A DNA stretch of 61,659 bases, the filler included. It is 9 parts of 9 records of this genome, joined end to end, with 100 filler letters (N's around TTAATTAATTAA, not from the genome) between each part and the next. Parts side by side here need not be neighbours in the genome. Positions count along the whole stretch, not along the records: positions 6,135 to 14,779 come from SRR31147125_12026; 8 more parts are not named here. One strand, written 5' to 3'. How positions within the stretch are numbered: the stretch's first letter is position 1; each line of letters opens with the position of its first letter. Below are positions 4,226 through 14,000 of the stretch, piece after piece. Below the pieces are notes generated by a model that was not told the origin of the DNA, ran no database searches, and saw nothing but the letters and a program-made list of their open reading frames with translations. The translations under genes and the position numbers were made by a program.

Positions 4226-4854
4226 TCAATATAATTTTGTGTAATGAAAATCCGTTGGAATATCCAATGCCTTGTATGCGTTTTGTTTATTTTTCTGAAC
4301 AGCTTCATCGAGGGTATCAAAAAGTCGTCCGCCCTGTGTATCAATGTCCACAACAAATGGTCCCAGTTTATCTAAAACCAGCTGCCACGGTGCCTCGATG
4401 GACCCCATTTCATCAAAAGGTAGACGTTCTTTATCTGTATGCTGTCTACCCAAAGATTTGGGCTGACCGAACGGGGTGACAGATGCACACAGCCAAGTTC
4501 CTGCATTGCTTGTGTTGTTTGAGTACCCATAGTCGTTTTCCCGATGATCACCTTCAAACCCCACTCTTTGATACTTTTTTCTCCCCATTTTTCAAACCGG
4601 ACACTGGATGTGGGCATAAACGAAACTAAATGATATCCGGTCTCTTTTTTCAGAATAATAGGTCCCACATGAATGAGTGTCTCATTTTCATACAACTCAT
4701 CGGGAAGAGCCAGACCCTCGTCGAAAACGGCCCGCTGCAGCTTGGAACGGCAGGTAAAGGCATTGCCCGAAATATATACGACATCGCCAATCCTCAATGC
4801 ATTGATATCTTTACGGTTTATGGGAGATTGCAGGTGATACTCTTTCATAATCAA
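4226..4854 (-). CDS. Fe-S hydro-lyase (fumarate hydratase / L-tartrate dehydratase type) beta subunit; 1-nt frameshift near 4420
   Basis: LRIGDVVYISG, HVGPI, PTSSVRF, IGK in ORF 4372-4854, continuing as EMGSIEAPWQLVLDKLGPFVVDIDTQG in ORF 4226-4588. Confidence 0.8.
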
Positions 4855-5767
4855 CGTCCTTCAAACCAGTTCGGATCTTCTCTATATGTCATACTGCCGT
4901 CAGCCAACACCAGATATGTTCCCCTTCGAGCAACAAAGCAATTACAACTGATAGCCACTGCAATGCCGGCAATATGCGTATACGCGTATTCAACATTCAC
5001 ACCGAGCACCGATGTTTCACCACCTGCTCCCATTGTCCCGATTCCCAGTGAGTTTATTGCTGAAAATAATTCACTTTCGAGTTTTCTGAATTCAGCTTCT
5101 GGATGATGTGTACCAACCTTGCGCAATGTTGCCGCCTCTTTTGCCAGATCCGCAGCAATATTAGCTGTCCCTCCGATCCCCACTCCAAGAATTGACGGAG
5201 GGCAAATTGCACCGGCATAAGTGGCCGCAGTATACGCGTCGATAATAAATTTCTTAATACCAGCCGTTCCATCGGCGAAAGCCACCATCCGTGACTGTGT
5301 TCCCCCAAAAACCTCCGATCCACCACCTTTTGCGACATACGTAACCTGAACAGAGTCTCCCGGTACATACTTATACGTGAACCAGGGGATATTGGTACCG
5401 ATGTTGTCCCCTGGATCATATCCCGATAAGGGATGTTTCATTGTCCGTCGCAAGTACCCCTCTTCCGTGGCCGTTCTAATCGCATTACGGGCCGACTCTT
5501 CCAATGCCAAGATTCCTCCTTCAATAAACGCTTCGTTGCCTATTTTGAAGAAGAATAAGGGCCAACCGGTATCGGACAGGCCGGTACATGATTTTTCCGG
5601 GATAGTTCAAGGCTGTGTATTGTATGTTCTAAACCTGTTTTCGTTGAAGGGCTGCTTTCCTTATGTAATGCATCCTGTAAAGCATTATAGACATCTTCGC
5701 TTATATACGTTGATCCTTTAATGATAGCCTTATAAATTGCTTCCCGTAAAACCGTCTGCTCCAGCAT
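4851..5767 (-). CDS. Fe-S hydro-lyase (fumarate hydratase / L-tartrate dehydratase type) alpha subunit; 1-nt frameshift near 5575
   Basis: Adding one G restores CPDTGWP and joins ORFs 5540-5767 and 4851-5510; KGGGSE, ICPP, GVGIGGT, THIAG, NCFVARR. Confidence 0.85.
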
Positions 5768-6264: not shown

Positions 6265-7317
6265 CTAATCAACAAACCTGCTAAGAAAATTTTTAGGAAC
6301 CGATAAAAAGAAACTAATGCTGGCATAAGGTGCTCCCGAAACACTCGATTCAATAAGGTAGTCGGTGTCTGGTTTTGGAAGTGCACTGTCGGTAGCAAAA
6401 TTCGATTCGGTTACATTGAAATTTATGTTTTTCGAGTAACCAAACTTGGCTTCCAGCCCCACCCATTTATTCAATTTTGTAACAATTCCAACGGTTGCAT
6501 CAACTGTCGACTGTCGCAGCTGAATACTTCCTGCTTCGCTTAAAACTGTATCGTCAACACGCACAGTGTAACTGGTTCCCGAAATCTCGGCATCGGCAGT
6601 TAAGTATAAATTAGAATTAAATTGTTTCCAAATTTTAAATCCCTGTGGTAGAAGCAGGTCGAGCCCAACTCCATTCGGATAACGTTTACTGTAGTTAAAT
6701 ACTGGGTAAACACTCGGACTACCGAAAGTATAACCAAAATAGGCTCCAAATGCGTAATATGTTGTGGCGTCTTTTTTTATGGCGTAACCAACTGCCAGCG
6801 ACGATTTTAAAAGATCATCTGTATTAAAATAGTTATCGCTGTTTAATAACTGAAAATCTCCGGCCAGGTTCCAGCTGGTTTGCATAATTATAGAGCGGTT
6901 GTCGTGTAAATGAAACATTCCTTTTATGTCGAATCCAAGCTTGCGTAAATTACGGTCGTGCAGCCCAATATACATTGGGTGATCGTCTGGTTCAAGGTTT
7001 TCAAAATAAAACTGTTCGTTTACATAACGAAACCCTCCGGTAAGTTTTACGCGTTGTTTATTCAGTATCGGAAATTTTAAGCGGGCAGTAACAGTGCGGT
7101 TTCCGGTTATTTCTGCCGAGCCATTACCAATTTCCGGCAGATCGGATTCTGATGAAATATTATAGTTAAACGGCCCCTCCATTTTTAGGTATAAAAACTT
7201 TGTGGGTAAACTGTTTTCGAAATAGGGTGTCCAGTCTTTGCTCAACAGAGTATCTCTGTCTTGCGCAAAACCTAGCATAGAAAAGAACTGTATAATTATT
7301 AAAATTTTTAATCTCAC
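6265..7317 (-). CDS. outer-membrane beta-barrel protein (DUF6268-like)
   Basis: Signal peptide, amphipathic strands, FG.PSVYPVFNY and LDLLLPQ motifs typical of this Bacteroidota family. Confidence 0.6.
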   Translation of the reverse strand: MRLKILIIIQFFSMLGFAQDRDTLLSKDWTPYFENSLPTKFLYLKMEGPFNYNISSESDLPEIGNGSAEITGNRTVTARLKFPILNKQRVKLTGGFRYVNEQFYFENLEPDDHPMYIGLHDRNLRKLGFDIKGMFHLHDNRSIIMQTSWNLAGDFQLLNSDNYFNTDDLLKSSLAVGYAIKKDATTYYAFGAYFGYTFGSPSVYPVFNYSKRYPNGVGLDLLLPQGFKIWKQFNSNLYLTADAEISGTSYTVRVDDTVLSEAGSIQLRQSTVDATVGIVTKLNKWVGLEAKFGYSKNINFNVTESNFATDSALPKPDTDYLIESSVSGAPYASISFFLSVPKNFLSRFVD

Positions 7318-7322
7318 AAGCC

Positions 7323-7969
7323 TTATAACGTTTGTTTTGGGTGAATATTATTTCGGAGTACTGTTGCTCCCAGGTTTTTTTGCCTTCATCGTGGATAACG
7401 GACCAGCCTCTGCTTTTTAATTCAGTAGAAACGTATCGGTTTATAAAACCATGGGTAACCAGAATGATTTGCTTTTGACTACGCGCTTTGTTTTCAATAA
7501 AATTGCAAACTTGTTGAGCCCTTTCTTTTGCTTCTGAATGCGATTCTGAATGCGGTTTTTCCAATCCTAAAATCCATAAAGCCCGCGAAACCGATGTCCA
7601 GCCTTTATACGGAAGTACCAGTGGCAACCAAATCATTTGCATTTCGAATTCGTCGAGCATTTTCAATGAAACCAATGTTGCCGAGTCGCCAAAAAGTTTA
7701 ATTCCTGTACCAATCGAACGGGGGAGAGTACTTACATACACTGTATCGGTTATTCGGTTTGGTATTTTTGCAAGAACCGTATCGGGATTAAATTGATAAA
7801 CCGGTGCCGTGTTGTACGCCCGGTTTAGTTCGGCAGCTTTTTTAGCACCCATCCAGCCATGATGCTCCAATGCAACAGCTGCATGACGGATTAAAATTAT
7901 TTCCTGTGCAGAAACTCTGTTCAAAGCAACAACACAAGTTAGTATAATAAGTGCGGTTAATATCTTCAA
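7323..7969 (-). CDS. secreted histidine phosphatase (PGM/SixA fold); probable frameshift in the homopolymer at 7375-7381
   Basis: Signal peptide, ILIRHA and LVTHG motifs; adding one base gives ...GKKNLGATVLRNNIHPKQTL* ending at 7323 and removes the overlap with the next gene. Confidence 0.75.
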
Positions 7970-10900
7970 AATAAATAGCTAAAATTAAACTGTAACAACG
8001 TTTCTTCCTTGCTTTTGTTTAATGTGGTGGTAATTACTGCCATTTTAAACGGCGAAATCCATATTCCGGCACCATAGCCGTTGTGCCATTTGTCTGAATC
8101 TTCTTCGTCTAACCACACGCGGCCAATATCATCGAACAATAATAAGCCAATTTCACCGGTGAGAATGTAATTCTTAAAGTCGTAAAGTTTAAATCTTACT
8201 TCAGAATTTAGATATAAACTTTCATCACCGTAAAATCGTGTTTTCCGGAAGCCGCGCAAGTTAGTTTTTCCATCTAAAATAGCAGCATCGTGGAAATAAT
8301 AATCGCCAAATATTTTTTCTCCGCCGGCACGGAATGCAAAAACAGTACGTGGATATTTATTAAAACTCATCAAAGCTGTAGCAGATCCTGCAATTTTTGT
8401 AAAGTCGGGTTCGTCGCCTTCGAGATTTATGTAACGATTAGCACTTGCATTAATAGTAAAACCCCGGCTTGGCATAAAATTTTTATTCAGGTTCTGATAT
8501 TGATAATAAGCTCCTGCAATGGCATACTGTTTTTGGCCCAGGTTTTCGCTGCTTAAGTCGTTGTTTTCGAAATTGGAAATAAACTTATCTTCTAAATCCT
8601 GGGTGTCGTTCATTTTCCACTTTATATTAACTCCCACTTTGTGCTCGTTTACCGGGTGGTCTTCATTTATTTCATCTTCGTTGTAACGCGCCCAAACCGA
8701 TTTGCCAAAACGTTTCTGAACAGCAACACTTGCCAATATCCGGCGTTGTTTCGTTTTAAAATATTTATAATCGTAATCCTGGTATTCGTTTGTTGTTTCG
8801 TTTCCTAAACCGTAAAAGTTTGTAGTGTAATTGGGGCCGCTCACATCTAAACTAACAGTGTAATCAAGTCCGTTGTTTGTCGACAACGATTCGTACATGG
8901 TATTAATATTAAATGCCGAATTTCTGAACGCGTAATCGCCAATTACCGAGGCTCGTACATCGCGTCTGAAACGCTGAAAATACCACGAGCGCCCGTAGCC
9001 AATAAATACTCCGTCGTCGGCATTAAATCCGCCACGTGCCAGTGGCATACCAATGTCGGGCATAAAATATTTTCGGTCGAATTCGTGAATAATTTTATTC
9101 TCAGAAAGCAATGCCTGGGTTTCGTTTCCACCTCCAATTACGGTGCTTTTATACAAGTCGTACACCTTGTTCATTTTACGCAGGCCTTTAACCTTCGAGT
9201 TGTCGGTAATAACATCTTTGTCTTGTCCGCCAATAATCCGAATAACAGGGCCTTTGTTCACCTCTCCCGAAATTTCAAAACGGTCTTTTTCATCGAGTCC
9301 ATAGCAAATAATTTCGCGGGTTTCGTCAGTTTTAATTATGCGGTGGTAAATTTGTTTCCCTTTGCTGCCGTCTTTTTTAATGTGAAAAACATTAACCTCA
9401 GTTTCGTCGTTACTTTTCCTTACAATTTCAAAAATGTCTTTACGATTTGTTCCTGTAATATTTACTCTTTTAGCCAGGTAGAGGTAAAGTTCGCGGGCCA
9501 TCTCGGTCATGTGGTTTCTTCTTTCGAGCAGAATTTTCGCAGTTGAGTCGGCCACCATTGGCTGCACCTCTTTCGGGAAAGTAGCCATGGCTTCATTAAT
9601 TACTTCGGGTGTCATTCTGCTCATCAAATCGCGGGTTGTAGTTGCCCAGTCGTTCCATTCCATTTGGTTAAGAAAAGTGCGGTCGAAATAACGTGCATTA
9701 AATCCAAGGCCAATGGTGTATTTTGTGCGTGGCTGGAAATTTTGAATTTTGGGCATCAGAAATGGCATGGATGCGATTCGTGGTAAAATTCCCTGGTTTA
9801 CAAAAAATGTTTGGTCGCGGTCGCGCGGAATGGGACGATAAACGGTAAGGCCATCTTCTTTAAACGATGCCCAGCGCCATTGGTCGTCGTGGCGATCCCA
9901 GTCGTTAATGTAAACGTCAAGTAGTCGGGCACGTAAAACAGCCTGCTGATCTATTTGGTGGTCTTCGCTGTCCATAATTTTATCCAAAACATCGGGTGTG
10001 CCAACAATTTTTTTCGAATTCCCAAAACTATCAACATCTTTCATGTTTCCGGTAGGTCGTTCTTCGTATAAAAACAATCCACTTTGCATGTCTTATGGTA
10101 TTGTTCAAAAAGAGGATCTTGCGGAACATAAACCACTTCGGGATTGGTATGAAAAACTCCTGCATGTTCGGCCAAAACAGCTGCAGGTAGCGCCCCGTAC
10201 GGATTCGATGCCGAAATTTGGTCTTGCACAATATCTTTGGCAAAGGTAAATTCCATTTCTTCGGGCATGGCTCCTTCTGTAAATTTTTCGAGCGAGCGCA
10301 GAACATATTGTTTTCCGTCGGCGGTTTCCATTCGTATCGACTTGGTTTGCTGGCCACCACCACGTTTCATAATGCTTAGTCCACCACGTTCTTTGGTAAT
10401 GTCGAAAACACGGGCTTCAATTGGTGTAGCCCAAAGCTTACGGTAATTTTTACCCATCCATTTTTCTTCGCTTTTGGTGGCCAAATATTGTTTACTGGCA
10501 AAAGTGCTATGTGTTTTTTCGCCGAAAAGAGAAGAACGCTCTTCGGTTATTTCCTCGTCGGTGGCTACTGTTTTTGTAAACAGTTTTTTCGAATAAACAG
10601 GATTTTCTGTGCCATTTTTAAGCGTGAAAAAGTTAAGCTCCACATCGCCGTTTTCGTACAAATCGAGTCGTGTTATGCCTGCCTCGCTACTTCCGAATTC
10701 CGATTTTTGGGTATTTACAAACGATTGTTTTTGTAACGAGCCACTTATTATCTGATGAATGTTATCCGTTTTTATGTATTGTAAACTGTTTTCGAGTGCC
10801 GAAGCATAAATAACATTAGGAAATTGGTTTAGCACCGTATGTAATTGTTCGCGAAGGTTTTTATAGTCGGGGTGTGCAAGGTCGTTTCTGCTACCCAGAA

Positions 10901-11576
10901 AATTTTTATAAAAAGTGTATGGAAAACCCAGAATGCCAACTGCTGTTCCCAAATTCCCGCTGTGTGTACCAAAAGATTCTATCGGGTGATAACCGGCAAC
11001 TACTACTGTTTTGTTTTTATTTCTACGCAAAGCATCTTGTAGCCATATAAATACATCTTTATCTTCCTCAATTCCGCATTTACCGTAGCGCGTGTCTTGT
11101 GTTGTAAGCCACCAGTAAGTGTCTATTAATATTACTGTTAGCTGGTCGTTAATTTCAACTTCAGTGGGGCCGGGACAGCCCCAATCGCTTGTGTAAACTT
11201 CGTTATCCTCATATTTTTTATGAAGCGCTTTAATAACTTTTTTTGTATTCTTTTTGCCGGTTCCCCATTCATTAATTCCCATTGTAAATAACAAGGGTAC
11301 ATCTTTTTCGAACTCATTCGGCACAAAAGAGAATTTCATTTTTTCATCTTCTATTCTCTGATTCGAAAAATTACCAAGCAAAACAAAAGAATACGGATGA
11401 TTTATATTGGTTAATTCTGCGATAAATTTTTGCTGTTCATCTGAATTCCCGGCTGCAATATTCCCCGCCAGAAATAAGCTTGTTTTTATGGGGCTTTGCG
11501 CATTTACCAGAAATAAGGTTGAAATTAACGCGAATCCCAGAGCTATAACGCGATAAAATAAAATGGAAATTTTCAT
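7966..11576 (-). CDS. ~1200-aa secreted fusion: degenerate calcineurin-like phosphoesterase + atypical kinase-like domain + Omp85/BamA-type barrel; 1-nt frameshift near 10090
   Basis: ORFs 10041-11576 and 7966-10089 join at EQYHK/DMQSGLFLYEERP; signal peptide; GCPGP..IDT.WW..HP region; GGGQQT, DWDRH, DRDQ; NLRGF, DIGRVW, GYGAG and terminal Phe of Omp85-type barrels. Confidence 0.8.
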
Positions 11577-11705: not shown

Positions 11706-12866
11706 ATGGATATTGTAAGAGAAGTTGAGAATTTCACTATAAAATATTATGAAGAGAATGTTTCTTCATTGTTGTTCTATCATTCGATAGAGCATACCCG
11801 ACTGGTGGCTAGTGTTTCTGCAACAATTGCCGAGGCTGAAGGATTAGACGAACGTAACAGCCAAATTGTTGTAATTGCTGCCTGGTTTCACGATATAGGT
11901 CATGCTGTGTCGTTGAACGATCACGAAACCGAAAGTTGTAAAATTGCCCGCGAATTTCTTTCAGAAAAGAAAATAGCTGAAGATTTTATTAAGGAGGTTG
12001 AGAAATGTATCTGTGCAACAAAAATGGGAGCAGTAAGAGAAACCCTGAATGAAAAGATAATTTGTGATGCCGACCATGCCCACACCGGGATGGAAAACTT
12101 TATGGAAATTTCGAACCTGCTACGTAAGGAAATGTGCAATTTCGTTGAACGTAAATGTTCGAAGATTGACTACTGGCGGCAGACACTTGACTTTATGAAT
12201 GGAGTGAAATTTCTTACAAACTATGGTAAAGAAAATTTGGAACCAGTAAAAAAAGCTAACATTAAAAAGGTGGAAAAACGAATTAAAAAGCTTAGTGCAG
12301 GTGAGAAAGCGGCAGCTCCCAAAAAGCCTGTAAAAAATACTGCACGCGGTATTGAAACAATGTTTCGTTTAACTGCCCGTAACCAAATTAACCTAAGTTC
12401 GATTGCCGATAATAAAGCAAATATTATGCTCACCATTAATGCTGTAATTGTATCGGTATTAATGAGTACAAGCGCCTTTACTTTGGGCGGAGGTGTGAAA
12501 TTGTTTCTGATTCCCGGATTGATATTAATTATTGGATGTTTGATTTCGCTGATTTTTTCTATCCTTTCGGTAATTCCGAAATATGGAACAGGAAATTATC
12601 GCGAAGAAGATGTTAAGAATAAAAGTCTAAATTTATTATTCTTTGGGAATATTTTTAAAATGCCCTACGAAACTTATGAAAGTGGAATAAAGGAAATGAT
12701 GGATGATTACGATTATTTGTATGGAACGCTTACCAAAGACCAGTATAACCTTGGAAAAGTATTAGCCAAGAAATATAAATTGTTGAGCTATTCTTACAAT
12801 TCCTTTATGTTTAGTTTTGTTGCAGCAGTTTTGGCATTTTTGGTGATATACTTGATTAAAATGTAG
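11706..12866 (+). CDS. HD-domain phosphohydrolase fused to Pycsar transmembrane effector domain (PycTM/DUF5706)
   Basis: YHSIEHT, AWFHDIG, HE, CDAD HD motifs; C-terminal ADNKANIML, two TM helices, LLFFGNI, LGKVLAKKYKLL, final TM. Confidence 0.88.
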   Translation: MDIVREVENFTIKYYEENVSSLLFYHSIEHTRLVASVSATIAEAEGLDERNSQIVVIAAWFHDIGHAVSLNDHETESCKIAREFLSEKKIAEDFIKEVEKCICATKMGAVRETLNEKIICDADHAHTGMENFMEISNLLRKEMCNFVERKCSKIDYWRQTLDFMNGVKFLTNYGKENLEPVKKANIKKVEKRIKKLSAGEKAAAPKKPVKNTARGIETMFRLTARNQINLSSIADNKANIMLTINAVIVSVLMSTSAFTLGGGVKLFLIPGLILIIGCLISLIFSILSVIPKYGTGNYREEDVKNKSLNLLFFGNIFKMPYETYESGIKEMMDDYDYLYGTLTKDQYNLGKVLAKKYKLLSYSYNSFMFSFVAAVLAFLVIYLIKM

Positions 12867-12878
12867 AGAATAATTATA

Positions 12879-14000
12879 GTGGCCAAACTAACCAGAACAT
12901 ATAAAAGTGCAATGGTTAAATACCAGCTTACTTTGCTGGTTTTTAGTTTAATCTATTGGAATGTAGTAATTCGTATAGCCATATTTTTGCGATTGCTTGG
13001 TGCCCGCGATCACCACATGCCCGATATGTTGACAAAGGGAATGAGTTTTTTAGTAGAAGAAATTGTTCTTTCATCGGTAATCATTTCCTTGTTTGCCACG
13101 TTAACTTGGTTTACACTTAATTTTGCTTATCCACGACTACTACAACGTTTAAAAATGCGTCGTCTGGCTATCGGCGTTGTTGTTATGGATATTTTAGTCT
13201 TTTTGGTAATAAGTGTTTTGCTGGGCGTGGTTCATTATAGTGTTGACAAGAGTTTAAGTTTGGGGGAGGCAGTAGCACAGTTGCCTTCTTTTTTATTAAA
13301 CTCTACTATTTTGTTTTTTCTGATTGTATTATTTATTGGCGGGTACGTTTATCAATTAACTAATACATTATTTCACCAAATTGGCTACATTCCATTGGGT
13401 AGGGTAATGATGGGGTATTATCAGAAACCCCGCGAAGAAGAATTGATATTTATGTTCCTTGATTTACAATCGTCGACCAGTTTTGCCGAAAAGCTTGGGC
13501 ACGAAAAATACAGCTATTTTATTCAGGATTGTTTTAAATGTGTTTCAAATTCGTTGCTGGCTACAAATGGGCGTGTATATCAGTTTGTGGGCGATGAAGT
13601 GGTAGTAATCTGGGATGCGAAAAAGAAAACGTGCTATAAAAGAGCCGTCGACTTTTTTTACTTTTACGAAGAATCTTTATCTAAACGTCGCGACTATTTC
13701 GAGGAAGAGTACGGTTTAATGCCGGTATTTACTGCATCAATTAATGTGGGAAAAGTAATGGCTGCCGAAGTTGGCGAAATTAAACGCGAGTTGGCATTTC
13801 ATGGCGATGTGTTAAATACTGCTGCACGCATACAAAAACAGTGTAAGCGTTATAAGAAACAGATTCTGGTAACACCCGAATTCGGACGAAGACTGGTAAA
13901 GAATACCAAAGACTACAGAGTAAAATATGTAGACTTTGTGAAATTCTTTGGCAAACACGAATCAGTAAAAATTTACGAGGTTTTCGAATCAAAGAAATAG
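12879..14000 (+). CDS. membrane-anchored class III nucleotide (adenylate/guanylate-type) cyclase
   Basis: About four N-terminal TM segments; FLDLQSST, QFVGDE, HGDVLNTAARIQ. Confidence 0.9.
   Translation: MAKLTRTYKSAMVKYQLTLLVFSLIYWNVVIRIAIFLRLLGARDHHMPDMLTKGMSFLVEEIVLSSVIISLFATLTWFTLNFAYPRLLQRLKMRRLAIGVVVMDILVFLVISVLLGVVHYSVDKSLSLGEAVAQLPSFLLNSTILFFLIVLFIGGYVYQLTNTLFHQIGYIPLGRVMMGYYQKPREEELIFMFLDLQSSTSFAEKLGHEKYSYFIQDCFKCVSNSLLATNGRVYQFVGDEVVVIWDAKKKTCYKRAVDFFYFYEESLSKRRDYFEEEYGLMPVFTASINVGKVMAAEVGEIKRELAFHGDVLNTAARIQKQCKRYKKQILVTPEFGRRLVKNTKDYRVKYVDFVKFFGKHESVKIYEVFESKK

What the first reader, a model, noticed from the sequence alone, without database searches (positions are those of the whole stretch)
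7966..10400. Atypical kinase-like domain fused to an Omp85-type barrel
Seen, in order: Gly-rich GGGQQT, a YVLRS strand, LLDVYINDWDRHDDQW and PIPRDRDQ, upstream of a barrel with LRGF and a terminal Phe. Known: PI3K/PI4K-, HipA-, CotH- and Fam20-like kinases have a Gly loop, a DRH catalytic loop and a downstream metal-binding Asp. Inference: a periplasmic or surface kinase-like passenger on its own barrel, resembling a type V-like export unit. Its phosphoryl donor outside the cytoplasm is unclear.
Basis: partly seen in the sequence, partly recalled or inferred. Interest (0 to 1): 0.7.

Follow-up and report, generated by a model that had tools for sequence, protein, structure and literature searches.

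The report
Kinase-like domain on Omp85 barrel
This is a large outer-membrane protein, common in Bacteroidota, that carries a previously unannotated kinase-shaped domain tethered to a membrane barrel, which raises the question of what a kinase-type enzyme does outside the cytoplasm.

Summary
They belong to one gene, 7966-11576. It is split in the window by a one-base discrepancy at about 10095. An independent assembly of a public run reads that site in frame.

The encoded protein of about 1204 aa has five parts:
- a signal peptide;
- a metallophosphatase-like domain whose metal ligands are lost in this lineage;
- a roughly 350-aa domain that Pfam does not recognise;
- an all-beta linker;
- a 16-strand Omp85 barrel.

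The unrecognised domain folds with high confidence (pLDDT 91.4). It matches only kinases: CotH Z 14.3, PI4KII-alpha 14.2, CtkA 12.8, HipA 11.3. Its Gly loop, DRH loop and RDRD motif are nearly invariant in the family.

The family is widespread in the phylum, found in 126 of 301 sampled genomes. It corresponds to the "Metallo" Omp85 subfamily of 2014. My literature searches found no description of the kinase-like domain.

The type V passenger reading is not supported. There is no POTRA domain, and the PlpD precedent is now placed in the periplasm. The conserved neighbours are an HD-2TM protein, a cyclase and secreted phosphatases. Substrate and phosphoryl donor remain unknown.

The parts
7966..11576 (-). 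Whole gene, about 1204 codons if read through. In the window it is split into ORF 10041-11576 (511 aa) and ORF 7966-10089 (707 aa).
   Evidence: Full-length homologues of 1200-1207 aa cover both ORFs at 69-77% identity.
11499..11576 (-). Sec-type signal peptide (about 26 aa, ending ...LFLVNA|QSP). There is no lipobox.
   Evidence: Read directly from the translation. The cleavage site is inferred, not computed.
10542..11498 (-). Metallophosphatase-like (calcineurin / purple-acid-phosphatase-like) domain. It is degenerate here: 0 of the 6 scored metal-ligand positions keep the canonical residue.
   Evidence: PF00149 hits relatives (6 of 38 members; precomputed labels; P0123 and P0238) but not the window ORF. 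Ligand columns were scored; the window has N, N, I, N, L, N.
9469..10499 (-). Atypical protein-kinase-like domain that spans the frame break.
   Evidence: AF2 model of the orthologous segment: pLDDT 91.4, pTM 0.91. Foldseek: CtkA 4e-6, CotH, PI4KII-alpha, HipA. VIA-align: CotH Z 14.3, PI4KII-alpha 14.2, CtkA 12.8, HipA 11.3, and all 50 rows are kinases. PDB profile search: CtkA E 0.018. No Pfam family at E<=1.
10344..10361 (-). Gly-rich loop GGGQQT, between the first two N-lobe strands of the model.
   Evidence: strands 53-58 and 63-69 flank G58-G60.
10293..10307 (-). Third N-lobe strand, YVLRS. An invariant Arg sits where kinases usually have the ATP-binding Lys, and an invariant Lys follows 4 residues later.
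   Evidence: The equivalence to the kinase Lys is inferred from strand order, not from a superposition.
10089..10095 (-). Frame break. Homologues read ...Y-K-E-D-M-Q-S-G... through this point.
   Evidence: The independent assembly has A>C and one extra C at + strand 10095, which gives one open frame.
9877..9924 (-). Catalytic-loop motif LLDVYINDWDRHDDQW.
   Evidence: The DRH Asp and the Gln align to the DRH Asp and Asn of CtkA.
9811..9834 (-). PIPRDRDQ, the equivalent of the metal-binding Asp ('DFG' position).
   Evidence: The first Asp aligns to the Asp of CtkA's I-F-D-C-G.
9103..9468 (-). All-beta linker domain: 11 strands, no helix. It is not a canonical POTRA domain.
   Evidence: AF2 model of window:7969-9492(-), pLDDT 91.6. 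No fold-search row covers it, so its fold is untested.
7972..9054 (-). 16-strand Omp85 barrel with the L6 LRGF motif (8248-8259) and a C-terminal Phe.
   Evidence: PF01103. Model strands 147-507. TamA barrel Z 26.2, F. nucleatum BamA 25.6, FhaC 24.4. BamA 8.8e-12.
7166..7969 (-). Secreted histidine phosphatase (His_Phos_1) gene, overlapping the end of the main gene by 4 nt. Its own 3' end is shifted at an A7 run (about 7364-7390), so the ORF runs on about 60 codons too far.
   Evidence: PF00300. Present in 26 of 81 loci. Homologues end ...GKKNLGATVLKK, and that reading is in another frame in the window.
11706..12866 (+). Divergently transcribed HD-domain protein with a C-terminal 2TM / PycTM-like membrane domain. 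It is the most conserved neighbour.
   Evidence: Pfam HD + PF18967. PADLOC PycTM 9e-22. Adjacent in 62 of 81 loci, and in 45 of the 54 with full flanks. In 4 of 4 genomes with single copies of both genes, the two lie within about 3 kb.
12879..14000 (+). Membrane-bound class III nucleotide cyclase.
   Evidence: PF00211. PADLOC PycC 2e-11. Within 5 kb in 41 of 81 loci, and in 30 of the 54 with full flanks.

Best explanation
The locus encodes one outer-membrane protein of the Bacteroidota 'Metallo-Omp85' family. The frame break in the window is most likely an assembly error.

Domain order: Sec signal peptide, metallophosphatase-like domain (a pseudo-enzyme in this lineage), atypical protein-kinase-like domain, all-beta linker, 16-strand Omp85 barrel.

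Shown:
- the architecture;
- the kinase fold;
- near-invariance of a complete set of phosphotransfer-type motifs (Gly loop, DRH-type catalytic Asp, Gln at the Asn position, RDRD metal-binding Asp);
- the barrel;
- a signal sequence in the forms whose N-terminus I read (the window gene, P0146, P0252 and the 423-aa stand-alone form).

Inferred:
- The barrel serves as a membrane anchor. The N-terminal domains stay on the periplasmic face of the outer membrane, as shown for PlpD.
- The kinase-like domain is a catalytically active, metal- and nucleotide-dependent phosphoryl (or nucleotidyl) transferase. It acts on an envelope lipid, glycan or nucleotide substrate.
- It works together with a phosphatase activity. 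That activity comes either from its own N-terminal domain or, where that domain is dead, from the secreted histidine phosphatase encoded immediately downstream.
- The module is functionally tied to an inner-membrane HD-2TM protein and a membrane cyclase.

The phosphoryl donor in an ATP-poor compartment is not known.
For: One gene:
- Homologues of 1200-1207 aa span both ORFs.
- All 80 fetched loci have one unbroken match across the domain.
- The independent contig differs only at 10095 and restores the frame.
- A second homopolymer-type shift in the next gene suggests the assembly is prone to indels.

Kinase fold:
- Model pLDDT 91.4, pTM 0.91.
- 25 Foldseek matches at E<=1e-3; of the rows printed, those at E<=1e-3 (ranks 1-23) are all kinases, led by CtkA, CotH, PI4KII-alpha and HipA.
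- All 50 VIA rows are kinases, top Z 14.3 (rmsd 4.5, 256 aligned).
- Profile search against PDB: best hit CtkA, E 0.018, aligned on the DRH loop and the downstream Asp.

Conservation:
- Invariant columns in the 70-sequence alignment.
- Catalytic-loop pattern in 253 of 266 and P[RE]DRD in 260 of 266 family proteins.
- By contrast, the metallophosphatase ligands are all intact in only 70 of 196 long forms and almost all lost in 102 of 196. Forms of about 860-930 aa lack that domain entirely.

Exported location:
- Signal peptide.
- A nearly invariant Cys pair in the N-domain.
- A stand-alone 423-aa form and a 538-aa lipoprotein form also start with signal sequences.

Barrel.

Periplasmic topology by analogy: PMC11116518.

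Phosphatase coupling:
- The histidine phosphatase gene lies directly downstream in 25 of 33 loci with a degenerate N-domain.
- It is present in 0 of 45 loci with an intact N-domain.

Neighbourhood.
Against: - No biochemical evidence exists.
- The strand-3 position carries Arg rather than the usual Lys.
- The Asn position of the catalytic loop is Gln in most members.
- Sequence similarity to any known kinase family is marginal. The best PDB E-value is 0.018, no Pfam kinase family appears at E<=1, and the atlas scores of 0.77-0.78 are below the level that counts.
- TM-scores to solved kinases are modest, 0.3-0.5.
- The periplasm is regarded as lacking ATP (passage in PMC11116518). A classical kinase reaction there has no obvious donor.
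- The phosphatase-complementation pattern is essentially one evolutionary event. The degenerate forms make one main clade plus two single rows (3 changes on a quick, unfinished tree of 70 rows), so it is weak as statistics.
- I could not inspect model coordinates. Residue equivalences in the N-lobe rest on strand order only.
- The contig may come from the window's own sample (depth 7), so it is not fully independent.
Confidence: 0.55

Rival explanations
1. Non-catalytic kinase fold. The domain is a pseudokinase-like binding module. It might bind a nucleotide (perhaps a product of the neighbouring cyclase), a phosphorylated lipid head group or a polyanion. It would act as a sensor or scaffold at the outer membrane.
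For: - Arg replaces the strand-3 Lys, and Gln replaces the loop Asn.
- Many invariant Arg residues suggest a phosphate-rich ligand.
- There is no ATP source in the periplasm (passage).
- The tight genomic link to a cyclase and an HD-2TM protein would fit a signalling role.
Against: - Both metal/catalytic Asp residues, the His of DRH and the Gly loop are nearly invariant in the 266 stored family proteins (the best hits of two searches, one of which found 3070 representatives). Binding-only modules usually let these drift.
- In the same proteins the metallophosphatase domain did drift when it lost function. So selection on the kinase motifs looks catalytic.
Confidence: 0.2
2. The kinase-like and phosphatase-like domains are passengers exported through or alongside their own barrel to the cell surface (type V-like). 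There they act on external targets using extracellular ATP.
For: - Enzyme plus Omp85 barrel in one chain, as in the original type Vd model of PlpD (described in PMC4104836).
- The best structural matches include kinases that act outside the producing cell's cytoplasm, CtkA and CotH.
Against: - No POTRA domain.
- The PlpD enzyme domain was shown to be periplasmic. Folded globular domains are not known to pass a closed Omp85 barrel (PMC11116518).
- About 700 aa in two folded domains would have to cross.
- Stand-alone forms without a barrel still carry only a Sec signal or lipoprotein signal.
Confidence: 0.12
3. The frameshift is real and the gene is a pseudogene in this organism. Alternatively, the two ORFs are made as separate proteins.
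For: - The window sequence itself has the break.
- The second ORF begins with ATG just after the break.
- The next gene also carries a shift.
- Depth in the confirming run is only 7, and it may be the same sample.
Against: - The independent assembly reads in frame, with residues like those of homologues.
- Both halves remain free of stops and 69-77% identical to intact relatives over their whole length.
- No split form appears among the 80 loci.
- The break falls inside the kinase-like domain, between its lobes.
Confidence: 0.1

Closest known systems
'Metallo' subfamily of the Omp85/TpsB superfamily (Heinz & Lithgow 2014, PMC4104836; section 10 read)
   Same: PF00149 domain N-terminal to an Omp85-type barrel without POTRA domains. 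Diversity is expanded in Bacteroidetes/Chlorobi. Function is unknown. Full-length relatives of the window gene carry exactly PF00149 + PF01103.
   Different: - That paper calls PF00149 a metalloprotease domain, but it is the calcineurin-like phosphoesterase family.
- It does not mention a kinase (0 occurrences of the word).
- The roughly 350-aa kinase-like domain, the degenerate phosphatase clade, the short forms without PF00149 and the gene neighbourhood are not described in the text I read. Its supplementary tables were not opened.
PlpD / patatin-like Omp85 proteins ('type Vd')
   Same: An enzyme domain is fused N-terminally to an Omp85 barrel. The PlpD enzyme domain is periplasmic and affects membrane lipids (PMC11116518). 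This is the best working analogy for topology.
   Different: - PlpD has a patatin domain and a POTRA domain.
- This protein has neither.
- There is no sequence relationship outside the barrel.
CtkA / HipA-type atypical Ser/Thr kinases
   Same: - Best sequence-profile match (CtkA, E 0.018), with the DRH loop and downstream Asp aligned.
- Best Foldseek matches.
- CtkA Z 12.8, HipA Z 11.3.
   Different: - 11-16% identity.
- No HipA_C Pfam hit at E<=1.
- Arg instead of Lys on strand 3.
- Gln instead of Asn in the loop.
- CtkA and HipA are soluble proteins made and active where ATP is available.
CotH kinases and type II PI 4-kinases
   Same: Highest structural scores: CotH Z 14.3 (rmsd 4.5, 256 aligned) and PI4KII-alpha Z 14.2 (rmsd 4.7, 249 aligned). 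CotH proteins act outside the cytoplasm of the cell they end up on (recalled).
   Different: - No PF08757 or PF00454 hit at E<=1.
- 10-14% identity.
- None of these is fused to a membrane barrel.
SEAE1, a putative PI-kinase-like lipid kinase of Bacteroidota (bioRxiv 10.64898/2026.09.18.752743; section 7 read)
   Same: - A recently proposed new protein-kinase-like family, commonest in Bacteroidota.
- Lipid kinases are its nearest structures.
- It lies next to a lipid phosphatase.
- The spacing of its catalytic Asp, Asn and two Asp residues (216/221/241/243) equals the spacing here (213/218/238/240 in alignment A2).
   Different: - It is described as intracellular and has a Lys on strand 3.
- The distance from the strand-3 residue to the catalytic loop is much shorter (76 against about 130 residues).
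- The preprint does not mention Omp85 or BamA.
- I could not test whether the two families are related.

Membership tests
Protein-kinase-like (PKL) fold superfamily | Bilobal kinase fold recognised by structure comparison | tested here: met
   Model pLDDT 91.4. All 50 VIA rows are kinases, top Z 14.3, 14.2 and 12.8. Foldseek: CtkA 4e-6, probability 1.00.
Protein-kinase-like (PKL) fold superfamily | Gly-rich loop between the first two N-lobe strands | tested here: met
   GGG is invariant and lies between model strands 53-58 and 63-69. The pattern is present in 232 of 266 family proteins.
Protein-kinase-like (PKL) fold superfamily | Strand-3 Lys that binds ATP phosphates | tested here: inconclusive
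   The strand carries an invariant Arg (YVLRS), and an invariant Lys follows 4 residues later. No superposition was available to say which residue, if either, reaches the nucleotide.
Protein-kinase-like (PKL) fold superfamily | Catalytic-loop Asp plus a downstream Asn-type metal ligand | tested here: met
   The Asp of DRH is invariant. Gln (Asn in 3 of 266) sits 5 residues later. Both align to the D and N of CtkA's DRHNGNW. Gln for Asn is a departure from the norm.
Protein-kinase-like (PKL) fold superfamily | Metal-binding Asp after the catalytic loop ('DFG' position) | tested here: met
   The first Asp of RDRD is invariant and aligns to the Asp of CtkA's IFDCG. The pattern is present in 260 of 266.
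HipA / CtkA family (Pfam HipA_C, HipA_2) | Significant match to the family profile | tested here: not met
   No such Pfam hit at E<=1 in any of 38 members. The PDB profile hit to CtkA is only E 0.018. The atlas leads at 0.76-0.77 are below the level that counts.
PI3/PI4-kinase (PF00454) and CotH (PF08757) | Significant match to the family profile | tested here: not met
   No hit at E<=1 in 38 members. The only similarity is structural, Z about 14.
Omp85 superfamily | PF01103 barrel above the gathering score | tested here: met
   45.3 bits against a cut-off of 24. 34 of 38 family members hit. The NCBIfam subfamily model NF047779 is below its cut-off, 85.6 against 200.
Omp85 superfamily | 16-strand barrel with the L6 (V/I/L)RG(F/Y) motif and a C-terminal aromatic residue | tested here: met
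   16 strands in the model. TamA barrel Z 26.2, rmsd 3.1, 288 aligned. LRGF at 8248-8259 and a terminal Phe.
Omp85 superfamily | At least one POTRA domain before the barrel | tested here: not met
   The 120 residues before the barrel are 11 strands with no helix. This agrees with the POTRA-less 'Metallo' class. The fold of this linker was not searched on its own.
Type Vd secretion (PlpD-like) | Patatin-like passenger plus POTRA plus Omp85 barrel | tested here: not met
   No patatin hit and no POTRA domain. Only the barrel is shared.
Calcineurin-like metallophosphoesterases (PF00149) | Profile match and the metal-ligand motifs (GD, GDxxY, GNH[DE], H, GHxH) | tested here: not met
   For the window copy:
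- no PF00149 hit;
- 0 of 6 scored ligand positions conserved.

For the family:
- relatives hit PF00149;
- 70 of 196 keep all six ligands.

The window domain is therefore a degenerate homologue, not an active member.
'Metallo' Omp85 subfamily (Heinz & Lithgow 2014) | PF00149-type N-terminal domain plus a POTRA-less Omp85 barrel | tested here: met
   Met at family level through full-length homologues. The window copy is an orthologue with a decayed PF00149 domain.
Pycsar defence system (for the neighbouring gene pair) | PycC cyclase next to a PycTM effector, patchy distribution in defence islands | tested here: inconclusive
   PADLOC gives PycTM 9e-22 and PycC 2e-11. However, the pair is syntenic with the Omp85 gene across many families of the phylum, which is unlike a mobile defence island. 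The N-terminal HD domain is not part of the PADLOC PycTM models that matched, which align only to residues 224-384.

The most novel reading that the evidence does not exclude
Bacteroidota widely possess an envelope-spanning phosphotransfer or nucleotide module. On the inner side sit a membrane cyclase and an HD-2TM protein. On the outer-membrane side sits an Omp85-anchored, catalytically active kinase-fold enzyme paired with a phosphatase. If so, genuine kinase-type chemistry (phosphoryl or nucleotidyl transfer) takes place in the periplasm. The donor would either cross the inner membrane or not be ATP at all.
Probability: 0.2. Interest if true: 0.85.

Novelty: new variant of a known kind. Interest (0 to 1): 0.62.

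Why it matters
Omp85 proteins are known as machines that insert or translocate proteins, and kinases are known as cytoplasmic (or host-directed) enzymes. Here an apparently active kinase-fold domain is permanently tethered to an Omp85 barrel.

- The domain was found in about four in ten sampled genomes of the phylum (126 of 301), and 3070 sequence-cluster representatives match it.
- The family has been catalogued only as a "Metallo" Omp85 of unknown function. Its most conserved part has no Pfam model.
- If the domain is active in the periplasm, it bears on an open question: which phosphoryl donors exist outside the cytoplasm.
- With PlpD, it would make a second case of Omp85 barrels serving as anchors for periplasmic enzymes.
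- The conserved link to a cyclase and an HD-2TM protein gives a concrete genetic handle.

For this particular window the gene is an ordinary member of the family, and its frameshift is probably an assembly artefact.

Tried and rejected
- Pfam and NCBIfam on both ORFs and Pfam at E<=1 on 38 family members gave no family for the middle domain. The weak hits (YonK, DUF226 and others) are scattered and were ignored.
- PADLOC on the main protein gave nothing.
- The search of earlier findings by sequence returned nothing.
- No whole genome is held for the window. Paralogues in the same organism could therefore not be counted.
- The look-up of sequencing runs listed no RNA holder. Expression is untested.
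- The protein atlas gave only sub-threshold leads (0.76-0.78) to CotH and HipA clusters.
- A programmed -1 frameshift was considered and rejected. The site has no slippery heptamer, and the independent assembly is simply in frame.
- A reading of two separate genes was rejected, because the break falls inside one folded domain.
- Literature searches:
  - 'Omp85'+'metallophosphatase' gave 1 unrelated paper.
  - 'Omp85'+'noNterm'+'Metallo' gave 3 papers, none on a kinase domain by listing.
  - 'kinase-like'+'Omp85' gave 0.
  - 'DUF5706' gave 0.
  - A six-term search gave one preprint, which does not mention Omp85.
- The CtkA paper I opened (PMC5536186) does not give catalytic residue numbers. The roles of the aligned CtkA residues are recalled, not read.
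- The careful tree did not finish, so only the quick tree was used.
- Complex prediction was not used. No binding claim is made.
- L082 was fetched but not examined.


Full report
**1. The observation**

On the minus strand two ORFs overlap in different frames: 10041-11576 (511 aa) and 7966-10089 (707 aa).
- GGGQQT at 10344-10361
- YVLRS at 10293-10307
- LLDVYINDWDRHDDQW at 9877-9924
- PIPRDRDQ at 9811-9834
- LRGF at 8248-8259
- a C-terminal ...FNFSYLF at 7969-7989

Pfam finds only an Omp85 barrel (PF01103, E 1.1e-11, 45.3 bits against a cut-off of 24) at residues 390-704 of the second ORF. It finds nothing in the first ORF. NCBIfam gives a sub-threshold Omp85 subfamily match.

**2. One gene, and a break that is probably an artefact**

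A homologue search returned 2093 proteins at E<=1e-3. The best are 1200-1207 aa long, 69-77% identical, and cover both ORFs.
- They read ...F-E-E-Y-K-E-D-M-Q-S-G-L-F... through the point where the window changes frame.
- The window lacks one base in 'cat aag (g)ac atg'.
- All 80 related genomic loci have a single unbroken match over this region.

One public run holds the stretch (0.95 of sampled words). Its independently built 5905-nt contig covers 9600-10600 and differs only at + strand 10095: A>C and one extra C. On the coding strand this gives an open frame with homologue-like residues.

Caveats on that contig:
- its depth is 7;
- the run may be the window's own source.

The next gene downstream also has a shift, at a run of seven A. 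With eight A it would read ...GKKNLGATVL..., like its homologues. This fits an assembly prone to indels. I put about 0.85 on the gene being intact in the organism.

**3. Architecture**

- *Signal peptide.* Residues 1-26 look like a Sec signal peptide without a lipobox (direct reading).
- *N-terminal domain.* Residues of about 27-345 are homologous to calcineurin-like / purple-acid-phosphatase-like metallophosphoesterases. Relatives hit PF00149. P0055 shows GD, GDxxY, GNHD, HH and GHEH.
- *Decay of that domain.* In the window copy all six scored metal-ligand positions are replaced (N, N, I, N, L, N). Among 196 long forms, 70 keep all six and 102 keep at most one. A nearly invariant Cys pair in this domain fits an oxidising compartment.
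- *Middle domain.* See section 4.
- *Linker and barrel.* I folded window:7969-9492(-) with a 71-row alignment (pLDDT 91.6, pTM 0.85). Eleven beta strands without any helix are followed by 16 barrel strands.
- *Barrel matches.* The barrel matches the TamA barrel (Z 26.2, rmsd 3.1, 288 aligned), F. nucleatum BamA (25.6), FhaC (24.4) and CdiB (24.1). Foldseek gives BamA at 8.8e-12.
- *Linker fold.* No row covers the linker. Its secondary structure excludes a canonical POTRA domain, but its fold was not searched alone.

**4. The middle domain is a kinase fold**

I built a domain-only alignment of 70 sequences from DNA references of related loci. The model has pLDDT 91.4 and pTM 0.91.

Structure searches:
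- Foldseek against the PDB gives 25 matches at E<=1e-3. Of the rows printed, those at E<=1e-3 (ranks 1-23) are all kinases: CtkA (4e-6), CotH, PI4KII-alpha, HipA, Rio2 and DAPK.
- An independent all-against-representatives search gives CotH Z 14.3, PI4KII-alpha 14.2, CtkA 12.8, HipA 11.3, then PI4KIII-beta, ATM, actin-fragmin kinase, Fam20 and MavQ. All 50 rows are kinases.
- By sequence, the profile's best PDB hit is CtkA (E 0.018). The DRH loop, the Gln/Asn five residues later and the first Asp of RDRD align to CtkA's DRH...N and its downstream Asp. That these CtkA residues are catalytic is recalled, not read.

Layout in the model:
- The Gly loop lies between the first two N-lobe strands.
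- YVLRS is the third strand, followed by a helix carrying the invariant Q-D.
- This is the kinase N-lobe order, but with Arg where a Lys is expected.

Conservation:
- GGG, T, R (of LRS), K, EER, DWDRH, DQWRW and PxPRDRDQ are invariant in the 70 sequences.
- The patterns hold in 253, 260 and 232 of 266 stored family proteins.
- The domain is 43-84% identical across loci whose whole-protein identity is 33-76%. It is the best-conserved part of the protein.
- No Pfam family matches it at E<=1 in 38 members.

**5. Spread and variants**

- The domain profile finds 3070 cluster representatives at E<=1e-3 and 1554 at E<=1e-30 among 1.84 billion.
- The best 150 fall into forms of about 1170-1290 aa, and forms of about 820-905 aa that lack the phosphatase domain but keep the barrel.
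- There are also shorter proteins. One is a 538-aa lipoprotein. Another is a 423-aa stand-alone form with an N-terminal signal or anchor and no barrel.
- In an even sample of the phylum of a related genome, 126 of 301 genomes have a match, mostly one copy each.
- The 80 best genomic loci are all Bacteroidota. They include Prolixibacteraceae, Marinifilaceae, Lentimicrobiaceae, Cyclobacteriaceae, Fulvivirgaceae, Spirosomataceae, Chitinophagales, Flavobacteriales and Sphingobacteriales.

**6. Neighbourhood**

I clustered ORFs of at least 100 aa around the gene in 80 loci plus the window.

| Neighbour | Of all 81 loci | Of the 54 loci with >=5 kb both sides |
|---|---|---|
| HD-domain protein with a C-terminal 2TM/PycTM-like domain | 62 | 45 |
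| Membrane class III cyclase | 41 | 30 |
| Secreted SdiA-regulated/phytase-like propeller | 31 | 22 |
| Secreted histidine phosphatase | 26 | 18 |
| Long pyruvate kinase (NF011314) | 16 | 10 |

(Sources.)

- In five complete genomes, the four with one copy of each gene have the HD-2TM gene within about 1-3 kb of the Omp85 gene. The fifth has five copies, one of them adjacent.
- Several loci are co-directional: cyclase, HD-2TM, pyruvate kinase, the Omp85 gene, histidine phosphatase.
- PADLOC scores the HD-2TM protein as PycTM (9e-22) and the cyclase as PycC (2e-11). The stable synteny across families is unlike a mobile defence island.
- The histidine phosphatase gene lies directly downstream in 25 of 33 loci with a degenerate N-domain and in 0 of 45 with an intact one. 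Two further loci were classed as short forms.
- On a quick tree of 70 rows the degenerate forms are one main clade plus two single rows (3 changes). The pattern is therefore close to one event. It is suggestive of functional replacement, not proof.

**7. Mechanism**

Shown: the architecture, the kinase fold, the conserved catalytic-type motifs, signal sequences in the forms whose N-terminus was read, and the linkage to phosphatases.

Inferred:
- The barrel anchors the enzyme domains on the periplasmic face. Omp85 N-termini are periplasmic, and the only studied enzyme-Omp85 fusion, PlpD, keeps its enzyme in the periplasm (PMC11116518, abstract and passages).
- The kinase-like domain is an active metal-dependent transferase that works with a phosphatase activity on an envelope or nucleotide substrate.

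The donor is the weak point. The same paper describes the periplasm as lacking ATP.

Rival readings, with my confidence in each:
- a non-catalytic binding module (0.2);
- a surface-exposed type V-like passenger (0.12);
- a true pseudogene or split gene (0.1).

**8. What is known**

- Heinz & Lithgow (2014) list a 'Metallo' Omp85 subfamily defined by PF00149 plus a POTRA-less barrel. They call PF00149 a metalloprotease and do not mention a kinase (section 10 read; word search).
- My searches found no paper joining Omp85 with a kinase-like domain.
- A 2026 preprint describes new kinase-like families, including a Bacteroidota lipid-kinase-like protein, SEAE1. Its catalytic-residue spacing matches this one. 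It is described as intracellular, and the preprint does not mention Omp85. A relationship could not be tested, because its supplements are closed.

**9. Verdict**

The kinase-like-plus-barrel reading is supported. The type V export reading is not.

The family is a known architecture with a newly recognised, apparently active kinase-fold domain in an unexpected compartment. I rate it a new variant of a known kind. Interest is 0.62 for the family. The window's copy itself is an ordinary member with a probable assembly error.

Noticed in passing
window 11706-14000 (+): An HD-domain protein with a 2TM/PycTM-like C-terminus lies next to a membrane class III cyclase. PADLOC scores them as PycTM (9e-22) and PycC (2e-11), like a Pycsar pair. 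Yet they are syntenic with the Omp85 gene across many Bacteroidota families, which suggests a housekeeping cyclic-nucleotide pair rather than a mobile defence system.
   Followed up: partly
window 7364-7390 (-), inside ORF 7166-7969: The secreted histidine phosphatase gene has a frame shift at a run of seven A. With eight A it would end like its homologues (...GKKNLGATVLKK). As it stands, the ORF runs about 60 codons into the next gene. This is probably a homopolymer error of the assembly.
   Followed up: partly
window 6265-7317 (-): A 350-aa protein with a signal peptide and a weak DUF6268 match in its L001 homologue follows the phosphatase gene. It sits in the same position in 7 of 81 loci (the closest relatives). 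It may be an outer-membrane protein of the same operon.
   Followed up: no
related loci, e.g. L008, L011, L014, L015, L063: A long (about 620-aa) pyruvate kinase (NCBIfam NF011314) sits immediately upstream of the Omp85 gene. It is co-directional with the cyclase and HD-2TM genes in 16 of 81 loci. It is not present within 5 kb in the window.
   Followed up: no
related loci, e.g. L078:4923-5945, L019-L025: A secreted SdiA-regulated/phytase-like beta-propeller gene abuts the Omp85 gene in 31 of 81 loci. In 22 of these the metallophosphatase domain is intact.
   Followed up: no
L081:2882-4153 (+): A stand-alone 423-aa version of the kinase-like domain has an N-terminal signal or anchor and no barrel. 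Its motif variants are GGGMQT, DWDRHAEQW and PSDRDN.
   Followed up: partly
window 4372-5510 (-): There are two adjacent ORFs with Fumerase and Fumerase_C domains. This stretch has higher G+C (0.50 at 5000-5499) than its surroundings (0.31-0.41).
   Followed up: no
L053, L076 versus L001-L003: Draconibacterium genomes carry two kinds of this protein. One is the window-type orthologue with a dead metallophosphatase domain. The other has all six metal ligands intact (39-41% identity). They lie in different genomes of the sample. Whether one organism holds both could not be checked for the window.
   Followed up: no
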